NCBI GenBank assembly: GCA_965219415.1
Contig: CBDCNP010000002.1
Coordinates: 128,001-192,000, forward strand
DNA: 64,000 nt
Direction: 5' to 3'
Source: Candidatus Marinacidobacterales bacterium
Lineage (GTDB): Bacteria > Acidobacteriota > Vicinamibacteria > Marinacidobacterales > DATDRI01
Below the pieces are notes generated by a model that was given only the letters and a program-made list of their open reading frames with translations, was not told the DNA's origin and searched no databases. Positions within the stretch are counted from its first letter, which is position 1. Each line of letters starts with the position of its first letter. Shown here one piece after another: positions 36,395 through 41,246 of the stretch. Position numbers and translations under genes: made by a program.

Positions 36395-38216
36395 ACACAC
36401 CCTGATCATCGCCGTCGTTCTCCTGATCGTAGTGTCTGTTGTTGGCGCCTTACCGGCAACGGCCACCGCCGAGAAGTCCGCCGGCAGCCTCTACGACGAA
36501 GCTGTCGCCGCAGAAAAGAAGCTCGCCTCTTCCAAGAGCCTGCAAGGGCAAAAAGATGTCTGGCTCAGGGTCGCGCGACGGTACCACCAAGTAGTACTGA
36601 CCCACCCACGCAGCGGCTATTGTGACGATGCGCTCTACCGCGAGGGCGAGCTCTATCGAAAAGCTGGCAGCCGTTTTCGAGATCGAGATGCTACGCGCCG
36701 GGCCTTGGATGCCTACCTTCTTTTGGTAGACGGCTACCCCAAGAGCAAATGGTGCCCCGCGGCGCGACTGGCGCGCGCCGACATCTATCTCAATCAGCTC
36801 TCGAACGAGAAGGCGGCCCGCAAAGAGATTGGGGAGGTTCTCGATGAGTGGCCGAAGAGCAACGAGGCCGCGGAAGCCAGGCGCATCTTGGCCAAGCTCG
36901 ACAAGAAAAATGCGCCTCCCACCAAACGTGCGTCCGGCTCGGGCCGCGTCGAAGTTCGGAACATCCGGCAATGGTCGGGAAAGGAATATACCCGGATCGT
37001 CATCGACACTTCCGACGAAGTGAAGTTCAAGCGCGCGCGTCTGACTAATCCCGACCGAATCTACTTCGACCTCTTGAATACTCGCCTATCCGAGAGCCTC
37101 GCTTCCGAGACGTTTCCAGTGGGAGACGGTTTCCTTCAACGGATTCGTGTCGGACAGAACAAGCCAGACGTGGTTCGCGTGGTCTTGGACTTCGAAAGCA
37201 TCAGCCGCTACAACGCCTTCTCGCTTCCGGACCCCCATCGTCTGGTGGTCGATATCTTGGGGATGAAGCCCGAGAGGCCTGCGAAAGCCGCGCCCACTCC
37301 GACCGTGGCCTCCAAACCACCAGCGCCGTCCCCGACTTCGACCGGCCGCGAGACTGCCGAGGCTAGCGATACTTCCAAGGAGTCGATAGCCGTCGCCGCC
37401 GACGCGACGCCGCCCGAAACCACCACTCTACCGTTACCGCCGCAGCCAACCTCCGAGGGTCGCTTTCCCCTATCGAGGCAATTGGGACTCGAGGCGCGGA
37501 GGGTGATCATCGATCCGGGTCACGGCGGGCGCGACCCGGGCGCGATGAAAAACGGCTTGCGCGAAAAAGAGCTCGTATTAGACATCTCCCGCCGAGTCGC
37601 TAAGTTCTTGGAAGCGGACGGGAGCTACGAAGTGATCTTGACGCGCAACACCGACGTCTTCGTTCCCCTCGAGGAGCGTACGGCGATCGCCAACTCCCGC
37701 GGGGCTGACCTCTTCATCTCCATACACGCGAACTCCAGCCGGAACCGCCGGGCTCGAGGCCTAGAAACCTACTATCTCAACCTCGCGACTTCCCCCGAGG
37801 CCGAAGAAACTGCGGCGCGCGAGAACGCCATCAGCACCCGACGGATGACGGAGCTCCAAGAGCTCTTGAGTCGGATCATGAACAACAGCAAGATCGCGGA
37901 GTCGAGGGAGTTCGCCCACTACGTTCAGGATTCAATGGTGGACAACGTGGTGAAGAACGGAAAACAGCGAACGCGCGACTTGGGGGTCAAGACCGCGCCG
38001 TTTTACGTCTTGCTCGGCGCCAACATGCCTAGCGTGCTGGTAGAGGTATCCTTCGTCTCCAACCCGGATGACGCGAAGCTGCTGTCATCGGGTGACTTTC
38101 GACACCAGATCGCGGAGTCGATCGTAAAGGGAATCCGCGGCTATACGACGTCGCTGAAGGGGGTAGCTCACGTTTCAGCGACCCCACCCACCGAAAGTTT
38201 CGCCCAACCCCGCTAG
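36369..38216 (+). CDS. N-acetylmuramoyl-L-alanine amidase (TPR + AMIN + Amidase_3)
   Basis: Signal peptide, TPR region, AMIN (YTRIVID, PDRIYFD, VRVVLD), IIDPGHGGRDPG, ISIHANS, LVEVSF. Confidence 0.93.
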   Translation: MRWIDNSARHTLIIAVVLLIVVSVVGALPATATAEKSAGSLYDEAVAAEKKLASSKSLQGQKDVWLRVARRYHQVVLTHPRSGYCDDALYREGELYRKAGSRFRDRDATRRALDAYLLLVDGYPKSKWCPAARLARADIYLNQLSNEKAARKEIGEVLDEWPKSNEAAEARRILAKLDKKNAPPTKRASGSGRVEVRNIRQWSGKEYTRIVIDTSDEVKFKRARLTNPDRIYFDLLNTRLSESLASETFPVGDGFLQRIRVGQNKPDVVRVVLDFESISRYNAFSLPDPHRLVVDILGMKPERPAKAAPTPTVASKPPAPSPTSTGRETAEASDTSKESIAVAADATPPETTTLPLPPQPTSEGRFPLSRQLGLEARRVIIDPGHGGRDPGAMKNGLREKELVLDISRRVAKFLEADGSYEVILTRNTDVFVPLEERTAIANSRGADLFISIHANSSRNRRARGLETYYLNLATSPEAEETAARENAISTRRMTELQELLSRIMNNSKIAESREFAHYVQDSMVDNVVKNGKQRTRDLGVKTAPFYVLLGANMPSVLVEVSFVSNPDDAKLLSSGDFRHQIAESIVKGIRGYTTSLKGVAHVSATPPTESFAQPR

Positions 38217-38219
38217 CAA

Positions 38220-38465
38220 TCAAGCCATCAACTTGAGAGCGATGTACGGCACGAGATTGAGTACGAGGATTGCGATTTTGTATTGCCCTAGATACTGAAA
38301 ATATGCGCGTGACATATCTTCGTCGCTTAACTCGAACATTTTCCCATGAATTTTTGACATTCCACCGCGCACGAAGGCTAGCATCATCGTTGCAACGAGC
38401 AGCATTCCGAAGTTGATGGCAGTGCACCATCCCAAAAATGCGGTGAGTGTTTCCAAAAAGTTCAT
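38220..38465 (-). CDS. Small membrane protein (DUF6868-like)
   Basis: MNFLETLTAFLGWCTAINFGMLL...HGKMF...YLGQYKIAILVLNLVPYIAL. Confidence 0.7.
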   Translation of the reverse strand: MNFLETLTAFLGWCTAINFGMLLVATMMLAFVRGGMSKIHGKMFELSDEDMSRAYFQYLGQYKIAILVLNLVPYIALKLMA

Positions 38466-38593
38466 TCTAGATTTCCTCCGTCCGCAATGTACCACCAAAA
38501 CCGCGCCGAAATCTCGTCCGGACGAGCAAGGCCGCCGGCTGAGGCCGGCCCTATCAGGCGAGAAACTACCTGAGCTTGATAAAAGGGTTGTCG

Positions 38594-38754
38594 GTGAAGG
38601 CCCCGGCAGCTAAACCCCGTAGCACCACTGGTGCACTAATGCCCCAGGACGAGCTTGGGTCCGATCCGGCTCCCTATCATTGGCGAGGCTTTGAACGGAA
38701 GCACTCCCCAGGGTCAGAATCCTAACAATCGCCATCTCGGGCCGGAGCCTTCAC
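38594..38754 (+). ncRNA. Putative IS110 bridge RNA
   Basis: Closed by a 14-bp stem (GTGAAGGCCCCGGC / GCCGGAGCCTTCAC). Contains CCCTATCA (= left target flank), GGGTCAG (= element right end) and TCGCC (complement of the core/left-end junction). Confidence 0.7.
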
Positions 38755-38780
38755 TCACAAAAATACATGTGAGGTCAGTG

Positions 38781-40181
38781 ATGCACAAGCGCATGAAAAA
38801 GAGTGGTAGGAAGTCGAAGAATCTGTCGCCGCAATCGCTGCCGGTGACAAGGTCGAAGGTAGCAGGCATCGATATTGGCAGTCGTGAGCATTGGGTATGT
38901 GGGCCGGCCTTGTCGGACGGTAAAGTGAACGTGCGGGTGTTTTCCCCAACGACACCGTCTTTGAATCAAATGGGGGATTGGCTCATCGAGCAAGGAGTCG
39001 AATCGGTTGCGATGGAAAGCACTTACGTCTATTGGATTCCGATTTATGAGTTGCTTGAATCGCGGGGTCTTGAAGTGGTGCTGGTAAATGCTCGACAGTT
39101 AAAAAACGTCCCCGGGCGTAAAACCGATATGCATGACTGTCAGTGGCTGCAGCTGTTACACAGCTGTGGTCTGTTGCGAGGCTCGTTTCGTCCTGGTGAG
39201 TCGATCTGCCGCCTACGCTCGCTTCACCGACAGCGTTGCAGCCTCATCGAGCAGTGTAGTCGAGCTATTCAATGGATACAGAAATCTCTGGACCAAATGA
39301 ACGTTCAGGTCCATCGTGCAGTGACCGACATCACCGGCGTCACAGGCATGCTCATCGTGCGCGCCATCGTTGATGGTGAGCGTGACCCGTCAAAGCTGGC
39401 TGCATTTCGTGACCAACGCTGCAAGAAGAGCGAAGAGGAGATCGCCGAGCATCTTACCGGCACTTGGCGTGACGAGCATCTTTTCAACCTCGCATCGGCT
39501 CTGCGTCTCTACGATGCGCTACAAGCCGAAGTCGAACTGTTCGACCAGCGTATCCTTGAAGTGCTCATCGAAGTGCTCATCGAACTCCAGCCGCCACAAC
39601 GCAGACACCACAACGTGCCAGCTCATCCAAATCCGCAAAAACGATACGACATGCAGCATCGGGGCGAGAGCGAACTGCGCAACGAGCTGTGGCGTTTTGC
39701 TGGATGCGACCTCACCAGGATCGACGGAATCAGTCCAACCACCGCCGCCATTGTCCTCACCGAGATCGGATTCGACCTCTCTGATTTCCCCTTCGAAAAA
39801 TTCTTCGTCTCATGGCTACATCTCGCCCCACGTCGCCCTATCTCCGGCGGTAAACAACTCTCCAAACGCCGCAACGGCGCCGGCTCCAATCGCATCGCCG
39901 GTGCCTTACGTATGGCCGCTGTATCTCTCTCCCGCTCCAAGACCGCCCTAGGCGCTTACTATCGCCGCACTGCTCGCCGTAAAGATGGCAAAACCGCCGT
40001 CTTTGCTACAGCACGCAAGCTCGCCCAGCTCGTCTTCCGCATGCTCAAATATGGCCACGATTACATCGATATCGGCGAACGCGCCTTCGAAGACCGTTTT
40101 CGCCAAAACCACATCAACGGTTTACAAAAGGCAGCCGAAGCTCTCGGATACACCCTCACTCCCCAGGCTTCCGGAGGGTAG
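38781..40181 (+). CDS. IS110 recombinase/transposase, apparently intact
   Basis: DEDD RuvC-like motifs GIDIG, MESTYVYW, KTDMHDC; Tnp20 domain with ISGGK serine; ATARKLA; GAGG RBS before ATG 38781. Confidence 0.93.
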   Translation: MHKRMKKSGRKSKNLSPQSLPVTRSKVAGIDIGSREHWVCGPALSDGKVNVRVFSPTTPSLNQMGDWLIEQGVESVAMESTYVYWIPIYELLESRGLEVVLVNARQLKNVPGRKTDMHDCQWLQLLHSCGLLRGSFRPGESICRLRSLHRQRCSLIEQCSRAIQWIQKSLDQMNVQVHRAVTDITGVTGMLIVRAIVDGERDPSKLAAFRDQRCKKSEEEIAEHLTGTWRDEHLFNLASALRLYDALQAEVELFDQRILEVLIEVLIELQPPQRRHHNVPAHPNPQKRYDMQHRGESELRNELWRFAGCDLTRIDGISPTTAAIVLTEIGFDLSDFPFEKFFVSWLHLAPRRPISGGKQLSKRRNGAGSNRIAGALRMAAVSLSRSKTALGAYYRRTARRKDGKTAVFATARKLAQLVFRMLKYGHDYIDIGERAFEDRFRQNHINGLQKAAEALGYTLTPQASGG

Positions 40182-40237
40182 TTTCGGGTCAGGTTTTTTC
40201 CTGGGAGTTCGCGGTTGGGGGCCCGCGCGCACTAAGT

Positions 40238-40266
40238 TTGACCCGCTGACAAGACGGCGTTAGCAT
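40238..40266 (+). promoter_or_regulatory. Sigma70-type promoter, probably giving a leaderless transcript
   Basis: TTGACC-17 nt-TAGCAT, with ATG at 40274, 7 nt downstream. Confidence 0.5.
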
Positions 40267-40273
40267 GAATGTG

Positions 40274-40567
40274 ATGACCTCCTACCTGTTCAATCTCACC
40301 GTATGGCTTCAACAGAAACAAGGCGGCGTCACGTTCATCGACCTGAAGGACCCGAACCCAGACCCGAATTTGGCCTGGGTCATACTGACCACTTTTGTCG
40401 CGATCGGCGTGGCGCTTGCCGTGGCGATCGGAGTCGGTGCAGGATTCGGCCTCCTGCGCATCTGGGTCCGCAAGCGATTTCCCAACAATCGGCTGAACGG
40501 CACCGCGGCCGAGCCGATAACATTTCTCCACCTCGGTCAGGAAGAGCCGGAAGACGACGGTTCATAG
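40274..40567 (+). CDS. Small single-pass membrane protein of unknown function
   Basis: Hydrophobic segment LAWVILTTFVAIGVALAVAIGVGAGFGLL followed by a basic RIWVRKRFP patch. Confidence 0.6.
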   Translation: MTSYLFNLTVWLQQKQGGVTFIDLKDPNPDPNLAWVILTTFVAIGVALAVAIGVGAGFGLLRIWVRKRFPNNRLNGTAAEPITFLHLGQEEPEDDGS

Positions 40568-40589
40568 AGGATCGAAGCCAATCATTCTC

Positions 40590-40622
40590 CGTCACCCAGG
40601 CCCTCTCCCATAGGGAGAGGGA
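40590..40622. repeat. REP-like palindrome / possible bidirectional terminator between convergent genes
   Basis: TCACCCAGG-CCCTCTCCC-ATA-GGGAGAGGG. Confidence 0.6.
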
Positions 40623-40646
40623 TTACAGTATGGAAGCCAACTTCTT

Positions 40647-41246
40647 TTAGGCTTGCGAGATGAAGACGCGGGCGCGGAGGTCGCGAAGCCCAGGGCCAAG
40701 GGAAGTGCTCAACGTGGCTCCGTGCTCCACCCCGGCCGGAATTGAAAAGCCGACTCGACGGTAGCGCTTTACTTCACCCGTTCCATCGCAGTCCCAGCAC
40801 CAAACCATGAAGCCCTGGCCGGTCCCCTCGCAGGCGTCGCAATCCTCCCCAACCCGGACTTCGAAGCTGAGCGTCCCTCCCTGCCGCGCCTCCTCCGGAG
40901 AGAGCACGATCTCCGCGACAGAATCGGTGGCGCGGCTCCGGCGTCCCCATCGCGGGCGCTTCGGTGTCGAAAGAGGCTCTAACCAGAGCTCGGTCACCGA
41001 ACCCGCCTCTCCACCGTAGGCGACCGGGATTTCAACCCCGAAGGTGAGATCGTAGGCCCGCTTTTTGTGGGGACTGGCCAAAATCTCGTAGGCTTCTTGG
41101 ATGTCGCGAAACCGCTCGACGTCGGCAGTACCCTCGACGTCGGGATGGAACTGTCGAGCCAGACCGCGGTAGGCGCTCTTGATGTCCTCTAGAGAGGCCG
41201 CGGCGGTCACGCCCAGAATGACGTAGTAGTTCTTGGGTGTGCTCAT
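40647..41246 (-). CDS. J-domain protein with partial DnaJ zinc finger
   Basis: NYYVILGV...IKSAYRGLARQFHPD; two CxxCxGxG repeats (CDACEGTG, CWDCDGTG). Confidence 0.85.
   Translation of the reverse strand: MSTPKNYYVILGVTAAASLEDIKSAYRGLARQFHPDVEGTADVERFRDIQEAYEILASPHKKRAYDLTFGVEIPVAYGGEAGSVTELWLEPLSTPKRPRWGRRSRATDSVAEIVLSPEEARQGGTLSFEVRVGEDCDACEGTGQGFMVWCWDCDGTGEVKRYRRVGFSIPAGVEHGATLSTSLGPGLRDLRARVFISQA

What the first reader, a model, noticed from the sequence alone, without database searches (positions are those of the whole stretch)
38549..40200. Intact IS110 with a readable bridge RNA: guide segments match its own target flank and donor junction
Seen: TCAGG core at both ends. In the left non-coding end, CCCTATCA (38672-38679) equals the chromosomal flank plus core start (38549-38556). 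GGGTCAG (38711-38717) equals the element's right end (40186-40192). TCGCC (38729-38733) is complementary to GGCGA at the core/left-end junction. All sit within a domain closed by a 14-bp stem (38594-38607 / 38741-38754). The right-target guide is not clearly identifiable. DEDD and SG catalytic motifs are intact. Known: IS110 bridge RNAs have target- and donor-binding loops. Unusual: it combines IS1111-like subterminal inverted repeats (GAAACTACC/GGTAGTTTC) with an upstream non-coding region and a long (~466 aa) recombinase. Inference: a candidate new programmable recombinase.
Basis: partly seen in the sequence, partly recalled or inferred. Interest (0 to 1): 0.75.

Follow-up and report, generated by a model that had tools for sequence, protein, structure and literature searches.

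The report
IS110-type insertion sequence, three-guide bridge RNA
This is an intact, multi-copy IS110-family mobile element whose upstream structured RNA carries three short segments that track its insertion site and both of its ends, an arrangement that differs from the textbook bridge RNA of IS621.

Summary

**True ends.** Copy comparison in this genome and in five related multi-copy families puts the element at window 38527-40192 (1,666 bp). An AG dinucleotide sits at both junctions. The left "TCAGG core" and CCCTATCA at 38549-56 lie inside the element.

**The RNA.** A ~165-nt RNA domain (38593-38755) is conserved in 33 distinct relatives, with 22 of 41 pairs showing compensatory changes.

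**Three variable loop segments track DNA across families, all in the sense of the + strand:**
- g1 (38647-54) matches the left flank plus AG.
- g2 (38711-17) matches the right end plus AG.

**Not supported.**
- No guide for the right flank was found, and none complementary to the + strand.
- TCGCC (38729-33) lies in a nearly invariant stretch of the RNA and showed no cognate partner.

**Placement.** The ends resemble published ISPpu9: an AG crossover, a long left box with a palindrome, and a 16-bp right box. The loop side on which the guides sit is the IS1111 type.

**Verdict.** A real bridge-RNA element and a new variant of a known kind. The role of g3 is inferred.

The parts
38513..38526 (+). 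Insertion site. A 14-bp perfect palindrome in the host DNA, whose last 9 nt (38518-26) are the conserved left flank ending in the AG crossover dinucleotide (38525-26).
   Evidence: Seven of 9 left flanks share CCGGACGAG or a one-base variant. The palindrome occurs at 6 loci in the genome. Three are occupied by the element, on either strand, and 3 are empty. A related genome has a similar palindrome at the empty site.
38527..40192 (+). The insertion sequence, 1,666 bp, counted with the right-hand AG (40191-92).
   Evidence: Five full and 6 partial copies in the genome. Relatives at 73-86% DNA identity match from about 38509-38518 to about 40192-40203. In five other multi-copy families the boundaries fall at the equivalent AG positions.
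38527..38571 (+). Left terminal box. It holds an 8-nt leader, a 6-bp hairpin (38535-40 paired with 38543-48), the inner motif CCCTATCA (38549-56), a 6-nt spacer, and the left inverted repeat GAAACTACC (38563-71).
   Evidence: Alignment A2 of 27 families. Hairpin cells are 92.6% paired against at most 46% when slid, and 5 of 6 pairs show compensatory change. A miniature element in a related genome (L042) keeps only about 50 nt of the left end and about 15 nt of the right end.
38593..38755 (+). Bridge/seek RNA domain, a three-way junction. P1 is 38593-607 / 38741-55. P2 is 38614-17 / 38657-60, enclosing the first loop. P3 is 38661-65 / 38736-40, enclosing the second loop.
   Evidence: Alignment A1 of 33 distinct sequences and RNAalifold. 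91.1% of cells are paired against at most 56% when slid. 22 of 41 pairs show compensatory change, against 13.2 +/- 1.6 in shuffles (0 of 500 reach it). G-U pairs fit the + strand. There is no Rfam match.
38647..38654 (+). g1, the target guide. It is identical to the left flank plus AG plus the first base of the element (38520-27), and lies on the 3' side of the first loop.
   Evidence: Longest exact match of 7 nt or more in 25 of 32 cognate pairs against 16 of 903 non-cognate pairs. The base after AG equals the element's first base in 23 of 27 loci, and the right flank's first base in 3 of 23.
38672..38679 (+). g3, a third guide-like segment. It is identical to the inner left-end motif 38549-56, and lies on the 5' side of the second loop.
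   Evidence: Match of 7 nt or more in 20 of 32 cognate pairs against 11 of 592 non-cognate pairs. In 25 loci the only partner is the left-end start in the + sense: 21 of 25 reach 6 nt or more.
38711..38717 (+). g2, the donor (right-end) guide. It is identical to 40186-92, and lies on the 3' side of the second loop.
   Evidence: A match of 7-8 nt directly after GTTT(C) in 28 of 33 loci. In 3 of the 5 misses the contig ends too early, and in the other 2 the search region was misplaced or did not reach the end. Match of 7 nt or more in 28 of 28 cognate pairs against 3 of 387 non-cognate pairs.
38781..40181 (+). Recombinase gene, 466 aa, with the DEDD/RuvC-like domain at residues 28-173 and the Tnp domain at residues 311-395.
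   Evidence: Pfam. IS621 transposase matches at E 8.6e-10 over the C-terminal domain only. The other copies encode 462 aa. The window copy has an in-frame 12-nt duplication that adds VLIE.
40177..40192 (+). Right terminal box, 16 nt. It holds the right inverted repeat GGTAGTTTC (40177-85), which contains the stop codon, then GGGTC and AG.
   Evidence: The right flanks of the copies are unrelated to one another beyond the first base or two.

Best explanation
An IS110-family insertion sequence occupies window 38527-40192. It moves by RNA-guided, conservative site-specific recombination at an AG dinucleotide.

Its 254-nt left end encodes a ~165-nt structured RNA in the same direction as the 466-aa DEDD recombinase gene.

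**Shown by comparison**
- The element's ends.
- The RNA fold.
- Three loop segments that change together with DNA sites across families.

**Inferred roles of the three segments**
[quoted passage not shown] Here that site is the 3' edge of a host palindrome.
[quoted passage not shown] It stands in for the right-donor guide and marks the element's left end in the circle and at excision.

**Other features**
- The right target flank is not read by the RNA.
- A conserved DNA hairpin lies between the crossover and the g3 site.
- The GAAAC/GTTTC subterminal repeats are constant across the clade, so they are probably read by the protein.
For: **Copies and ends**
- Five full and 6 partial copies, 98-100% identical.
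- All 5 full copies, and 1 partial copy that keeps the gene, have intact ORFs.
- Left flanks diverge at or just before ...GACGAG, and right flanks diverge after ...GGGTCAG.
- The same kind of boundary is seen in five other multi-copy families, and tandem copies there share a single AG.

**RNA**
- 33 distinct sequences, 91.1% of cells paired, 22 of 41 pairs with compensatory change, 0 of 500 shuffles as high.

**Guides**
- Cognate against non-cognate exact matches of 7 nt or more: g1 25/32 vs 16/903, g3 20/32 vs 11/592, g2 28/28 vs 3/387.
- In a 3-guide x 4-region x 2-strand matrix over 25 loci, only g1 with the left flank(+), g3 with the left-end start(+) and g2 with the right end(+) exceed background.

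**Hairpin**
- 92.6% paired, 5 of 6 pairs compensatory.

**Target**
- The 14-bp palindrome is at 6 loci, 3 of them occupied, in either orientation.

**Published parallels**
- ISPpu9 recombines at AG and has a 43-bp left box with a palindrome and a 16-bp right box (PMC12288879, passages).
- IS1111 seekRNAs place the bottom-strand match 3' of the top-strand match (PMC11187229, sections 9 and 12).
Against: - No circle junction, RNA ends or transposition were observed. The only expression hint is one 156-nt contig (38581-38736) in one metatranscriptome run, and DNA carry-over is not excluded.
- No base-exact empty site was found in relatives for the three copies tried. For the window copy the intergenic DNA has diverged. 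For the other two the matching right flanks lie far from the element.
- In some searches the junctions were located with g1 and g2 themselves, so for those two guides the independent support is the copy-defined boundaries of six families and the unanchored scans.
- g3 breaks the published rules. It pairs with the same strand as g2 and lies far from the crossover, and nothing shows that it touches DNA.
- The 7-nt g1 match occurs 2,439 times in the genome and the 9-nt flank 173 times. The guide alone therefore cannot explain site choice.
- Two copies in this genome and one in a relative begin at the hairpin loop (38540) with unrelated DNA upstream.
- No sigma-70 promoter consensus was found at 38400-38850.
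Confidence: 0.8

Rival explanations
1. The element runs from TCAGG (38554) to TCAGG (40193). CCCTATCA (38672-79) is the left-target guide, and the roughly 40 nt upstream of 38554 is a repeated chromosomal target.
For: - The inverted repeats sit almost symmetrically around TCAGG at both ends.
- One fragment in a related genome (L043) starts at TCAGG with unrelated DNA upstream.
- g3 does match 38549-56 in most families.
Against: - The supposed target never occurs without the element. In this genome 9 of 9 exact 14-mers abut it, and in five relatives 7 of 7 pattern hits are next to IS sequence.
- Within families identity drops sharply at the outer AG, not at the inner motif.
- g1 matches the outer junction.
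- Tandem copies join the right end directly to the hairpin region.
- The hairpin with its GCC-rich leader is conserved across phyla, with compensatory changes.
- By my reading of alignment A2, the inner motif is followed by AG in only a minority of the 27 families, so it lacks the shared core.
Confidence: 0.04
2. The ends and g1/g2 are as in the best explanation, but g3 is not a DNA guide. Its identity with the inner left-end motif would reflect something else: the RNA-protein complex binding near the RNA's own promoter to shut it off, a shared protein-binding sequence, or an alternative longer transcript in which the left-end hairpin and motif replace part of the RNA.
For: - g3 pairs with the same DNA strand as g2, about 23 nt from the crossover. 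That fits neither the IS621 nor the IS1111 rule (PMC11208160 passages; PMC11187229).
- In both the DNA and the RNA the motif follows the 3' arm of a stem and precedes a G-rich stretch.
- In ISPpu9, mutating the left-box palindrome did not stop circle formation (PMC12288879).
Against: - The letters of g3 and of the inner motif change together across families. That needs selection for identity, and base pairing to a common partner is the simplest source.
- Miniature elements keep the motif.
- With no right-target guide, three guides are exactly what is needed to define target, circle and both junctions.
Confidence: 0.3
3. The element is a decayed relic and the matches are leftovers without present function.
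For: There are six partial or rearranged copies. The window copy carries a 12-nt duplication and a 1-nt insertion relative to the others.
Against: - All 5 full copies have open 462/466-aa frames and are 98.8-100% identical.
- The RNA model finds 7 full-scoring copies in the genome.
- The duplication is in frame.
Confidence: 0.05

Closest known systems
IS621 and its bridge RNA (Durrant et al. 2024, PMC11208160; Hiraizumi et al. 2024)
   Same: - A DEDD + Tnp recombinase, though only the C-terminal domain matches (E 8.6e-10).
- The RNA is encoded upstream in a long left end.
- Two internal loops whose segments match the target and the element's ends.
- A shared core dinucleotide. AG here is CT on the other strand.
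   Different: [quoted passage not shown]
- Here only three covarying segments were found, and all pair with the bottom strand.
- The two that read the left halves sit on the 3' sides of their loops.
- There is no right-target guide.
- The third segment reads a site about 23 nt from the core, behind a DNA hairpin.
- The recombinase is 466 aa against 328, and the subterminal repeats are 5-9 bp against 2-3 bp.
ISPpu9 of Pseudomonas putida (Pares-Guillen et al. 2025, PMC12288879)
   Same: - Crossover at an AG present at both ends.
- A long left terminal box (43 bp) containing a short palindrome, and a 16-bp right box.
- Insertion beside palindromic host repeats.
- Miniature derivatives made of the two boxes.
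   Different: - In ISPpu9 a similar palindrome also lies in the right target flank. Here the right flanks share nothing beyond a base or two.
- ISPpu9 is described as lacking inverted repeats.
- Its guide segments are not mapped in the passages I read.
- Sequence relatedness to ISPpu9 was not tested, because no ISPpu9 sequence was at hand.
IS1111-family seekRNA elements such as ISEc11 (Siddiquee et al. 2024, PMC11187229)
   Same: - Subterminal inverted repeats with terminal extensions.
- The bottom-strand match lies 3' in the RNA loop.
- A few IS1111 members are reported to have an upstream non-coding region.
   Different: - IS1111 transposases are 330-350 aa and the RNA is normally downstream.
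- They have a top-strand match 5' of the bottom-strand match, and none is seen here.

Membership tests
IS110 family (sensu lato) | Recombinase with an N-terminal DEDD/RuvC-like domain and a C-terminal Tnp domain with an SG motif. | tested here: met
   PF01548 at E 2e-21 (residues 28-173) and PF02371 at E 1e-13 (residues 311-395). SG aligns to SG of IS621. The DEDD residues were not checked individually.
IS110 family (sensu lato) | Site-specific insertion without target duplication, with a shared core at both junctions. | tested here: met
   AG at both junctions here and in five other multi-copy families. Tandem copies share one AG. No base-exact empty site was recovered.
Bridge/seek RNA systems | A structured RNA in a non-coding end whose loop segments covary with the target and the element's ends. 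| tested here: met
Bridge/seek RNA systems | The RNA is made and binds the recombinase, and a circular intermediate forms. | not testable with these tools
   The only hint is a 156-nt contig over 38581-38736 in one metatranscriptome run, and DNA carry-over is not excluded.
IS621-type bridge RNA | [quoted passage not shown] | tested here: not met
   No segment is complementary to the + strand of any flank or end. The left-half guides lie on the 3' sides of the loops.
IS110 group (Durrant 2024) | A long left end holding the RNA, a short right end, and 2-3-bp subterminal repeats. | tested here: inconclusive
   The left end is 254 nt with the RNA and the right end is 11 nt after the stop codon, so both are met. 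The repeats are 9 bp here, and only the 5-bp GAAAC/GTTTC is common to the clade, so that feature is not met.
IS1111 group | Subterminal inverted repeats of 7-17 bp, RNA downstream of the gene, transposase of 330-350 aa. | tested here: not met
   The repeats are met (9 bp). The RNA is upstream and the protein is 466 aa. Placement on a transposase tree was not done.
ISPpu9-like elements | An AG crossover, a roughly 43-bp left box with a palindrome, and a 16-bp right box. | tested here: met
   compared with the description in PMC12288879. This is likeness of layout only. Homology was not tested.

The most novel reading that the evidence does not exclude
This clade uses a bridge RNA with a different logic from IS621. 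Three guides all pair with one DNA strand. The target is specified on one side only, by about 8-9 nt. The element's left end is recognised through a remote site brought into play by a conserved DNA hairpin next to the crossover. That would imply a different synaptic geometry: hairpin extrusion, or binding of the hairpin by the enlarged middle region of the 466-aa recombinase, or transfer of a single strand.
Probability: 0.4. Interest if true: 0.75.

Novelty: new variant of a known kind. Interest (0 to 1): 0.55.

Why it matters
Bridge recombinases are being developed as programmable genome-rearrangement tools on the IS621 plan of four guides.

A natural clade spread over many phyla seems to work with three same-strand guides, no right-target guide, and a hairpin-separated donor site. 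If so, that would widen the design rules. It also gives a concrete function to test for the left-box palindrome that the ISPpu9 study left unexplained.

For annotation, the case shows how a conserved internal motif plus a short direct repeat can be mistaken for the end of an IS110 element. Ends should be set by copy comparison.

Tried and rejected
- **Rfam.** No match at E up to 1 over 38000-40700.
- **Empty sites.** For three copies in same-genus genomes the flanks were found. For the window copy the intergenic DNA has diverged. For the other two the matching right flanks lie far from the element. No base-exact empty site resulted.
- **Free-standing target.** Searching for a free copy of the 14 nt before TCAGG found none.
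- **Fourth and fifth guides.** The other variable loop parts (alignment columns 69-80 and 191-204) show no cognate excess against flanks or ends on either strand.
- **Crossover at the inner motif.** Rejected, because by my reading of alignment A2 the motif is followed by AG in only a minority of the 27 families, and its last bases do not follow the right end.
- **Promoter and terminator consensus scan**, 38400-38850: nothing.
- **Hairpin energy against shuffles.** Not informative in this GC-rich stretch (mean z -0.4), so it was replaced by pair counts.
- **RNA model on the own genome.** It finds only copies of this element.
- **Sequencing runs.** All four runs laid were contigs, so no RNA ends, strand or level can be read. 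No right-end-to-left-end joint was listed.
- The count was redone from stored loci by reference.
- **Not done:** a transposase tree against named IS110 and IS1111 references, and a structure prediction.
Full report
**Observation.**
- The ORF 38781-40181 encodes 466 aa with Pfam DEDD_Tnp_IS110 (E 2e-21) and Transposase_20 (E 1e-13).
- The closest solved protein is the IS621 transposase. It matches only over the C-terminal domain (E 8.6e-10), where SG aligns to SG.
- Rfam holds nothing for the region.

**Copies and true ends in this genome.** The genome (3 contigs, 8.05 Mb) holds 5 full-length and 6 partial copies, 98-100% identical.
- The right flanks are unrelated to one another after ...GGGTCAG, apart from a G in 8 of 9.
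All 9 left ends share the 14 nt before TCAGG, and 7 of 9 share about 27 nt, back to ...GACGAG.
- That 14-mer never occurs away from the element: 9 of 9 exact hits abut it, and the two one-mismatch hits are unrelated.
- In five related genomes, 7 of 7 hits of a degenerate pattern lie beside IS-related sequence.

**True ends in relatives.**
- Relatives at 73-86% DNA identity match the window from about 38509-38518 to about 40192-40203.
- A protein-guided scan of one genome per species returned 73 loci at 41-93% amino-acid identity from many phyla, several of them multi-copy.
- In five such families the copies diverge on the left about 35-45 nt upstream of the equivalent of CCCTATCAGG, and on the right just after ...AG.
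- In one family, two loci are tandem copies in which the right end of one copy runs straight into the hairpin region of the next, with a single AG between them.

I therefore place the element at 38527-40192, with AG at 38525-26 and at 40191-92. One AG belongs to the target and one to the element.

**The RNA.** Upstream regions of 32 distinct relatives align with window 38590-38760 (alignment A1, 55% mean column identity). Long invariant blocks are interrupted by a few variable windows.
- RNAalifold gives a three-way junction.
- 22 of 41 pairs show changes on both sides, against 13.2 +/- 1.6 in shuffles. None of 500 shuffles reaches this.
- Frequent G-U pairs fit the + strand, for example 16 of 33 at columns 65/113.
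- A covariance model built from A1 finds, in this genome, only the copies of this element: 7 full scores and 3 partial.

**Guides.** Three variable windows sit in the two internal loops.
- g1 (38647-54) is on the 3' side of loop 1.
- g3 (38672-79) is on the 5' side of loop 2.
- g2 (38711-17) is on the 3' side of loop 2.

In the six families whose ends were set by copy comparison alone, g1 reads the left flank plus AG, and g2 reads the last 7-8 nt of the element, directly after GTTT(C).

Across all loci, the longest exact match in the 140 nt upstream of the RNA, or around the right end, reaches 7 nt or more as follows:

| Guide | Cognate pairs | Non-cognate pairs |
|---|---|---|
| g1 | 25 of 32 | 16 of 903 |
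| g3 | 20 of 32 | 11 of 592 |
| g2 | 28 of 28 | 3 of 387 |

For g2 the region was centred on the match. The unanchored scan gave 28 of 33, and in 3 of the 5 misses the contig ends too early.

A full matrix of three guides, four regions and both strands over 25 loci shows only three partners, all in the + sense:
- g1 with the left flank.
- g3 with the first 55 nt of the element.
- g2 with the right end.

In some searches the junctions were located with g1 and g2, so for those two guides these calls are not independent.

Further points on the guides:
- The other variable loop parts have no partner.
- The base after AG in g1 equals the first base of the element in 23 of 27 loci, where non-cognate pairs give 51%. 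The 4 exceptions are T in the RNA against C in the DNA, which still allows a U-G pair with the bottom strand. It equals the first base of the right flank in 3 of 23.
- TCGCC (38729-33) lies in a nearly invariant stretch, and that stretch of the loop has no cognate partner. I see no support for it as a guide.

**Left terminal box.** The box runs from the crossover to the left inverted repeat. In 27 families it has the same plan (alignment A2):
- a few variable bases;
- a GCC-rich leader;
- a hairpin;
- the g3-matching motif;
- about 5 nt of spacer;
- GAAAC.

The 6-bp stem is 92.6% paired, against at most 46% when slid, and 5 of 6 pairs show compensatory changes.

A miniature element in a related genome keeps only about 50 nt of the left end and about 15 nt of the right end (L042). 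Related miniature elements also lie in this genome.

**Target.** Three of the 9 left flanks carry the perfect 14-bp palindrome 38513-26, and one more carries a two-mismatch variant of it.
- The palindrome is at 6 loci in the genome. Three are occupied, in either orientation, and 3 are empty.
- A same-genus genome has a similar palindrome at the empty site of the window copy.
- The 9-nt flank occurs 173 times and the 7-nt g1 match 2,439 times. Something beyond g1 limits insertion, or insertion is rare.

**Comparison with published systems.**
[quoted passage not shown] The IS110 group has a long left end and 2-3-bp subterminal repeats. The IS1111 group has a long right end and 7-17-bp repeats (PMC11208160, passages and section 12).
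- *IS1111 seekRNAs.* The top-strand match lies 5' of the bottom-strand match, the reverse of IS110-type ISEc21. A few IS1111 members have an upstream non-coding region (PMC11187229, sections 6, 9, 12 and 13).
- *This element.* The bottom-strand guides for the left halves (g1, g2) lie on the 3' sides, which is the IS1111 order. The RNA is upstream and the protein is long, which are IS110-group traits. The repeats are 9 bp.
- *ISPpu9.* It recombines at an AG at both ends, has a 43-bp left box with a palindrome and a 16-bp right box, and has miniature derivatives. Mutating the palindrome did not stop circle formation, and the passages I read do not map guides (PMC12288879).
- *2026 preprint.* It clusters 32,190 bridge RNAs into 86 models and calls four guide regions using 25-nt donor windows (bioRxiv 10.64898/2026.10.21.760802, section 2.4 and methods passages). 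I saw no three-guide class described there, but its figures were not visible to me.

**Mechanism.**
- *Shown:* the ends, the fold, and three covarying identities.
- *Why three may be enough:* no right-target guide exists, so three guides suffice to define the target, the circle junction and both junctions of an integrated copy. The third, g3, would then mark the element's left end.
- *What does not fit:* g3 pairs with the same strand as g2 and lies about 23 nt from the crossover, beyond the hairpin. No published rule covers this.
- *Rivals for g3:* autoregulation near the RNA's promoter, a shared protein-binding sequence, or an alternative transcript.

**Expression.**
- In two metatranscriptome runs of one study, one 156-nt contig covers 38581-38736 at 100% identity, and one 155-nt contig covers 39953-40107.
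- These are contigs, and DNA carry-over is not excluded.
- DNA runs show that the window copy differs from the common form by one extra base at 38576 and by a 12-nt in-frame duplication at 39558.

**Verdict.** This is a genuine, probably active, IS110-family bridge-RNA element. The layout (three same-strand guides, a one-sided target, and a hairpin-separated left-end site) is a new variant of a known kind.

Noticed in passing
window 40589-40645: A stretch of about 55 nt downstream of the element recurs many times, at 82-90% identity, in several related genomes. It is unlinked to the IS and looks like a separate small repeat family.
   Followed up: no
G000 C3:617543 and C3:2136492 (left ends of two copies); L049: Two copies in this genome and one miniature element in a same-genus genome begin at the loop of the left-end hairpin (the equivalent of window 38540), with unrelated DNA upstream. 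In one of them the upstream DNA is an inverted piece of a related recombinase gene's 3' end. This is a recurrent break point at the hairpin.
   Followed up: partly
G000 C3:3985071 and C3:3985835 (minus strand); L042 in G003: Miniature elements of about 90-100 bp made of a related left box and right box. Their left flank fits the g1 of a sister family (seen in L021 and L059), not the g1 of the window's element.
   Followed up: partly
window 39558-39581: The window copy alone carries a 12-nt tandem duplication (four extra residues, VLIE) in the middle region of the recombinase, and one extra T at 38576. The other copies encode 462 aa.
   Followed up: yes
window 38513-38526 and G000 C1:1521414: The window's insertion site and a site on contig 1 are paralogous: the same palindrome followed by a similar T-rich stretch. 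The element sits on opposite sides of the palindrome, in opposite orientation, at the two sites.
   Followed up: partly
L060 and L119 (Marinacidobacterales MAG): Tandem copies of the related element. In that family the target guide and the right-end guide differ by one base, so the element's own right end is a target.
   Followed up: partly
L076-L081, L089, L090, L094: A related family sits inside short tandem repeats with a period of about 8 nt that contain its g1 match.
   Followed up: no
window 39004-39121: This part of the recombinase gene matches about six loci in a same-family genome (G003) at about 70% identity, which points to other IS110-family elements there.
   Followed up: no
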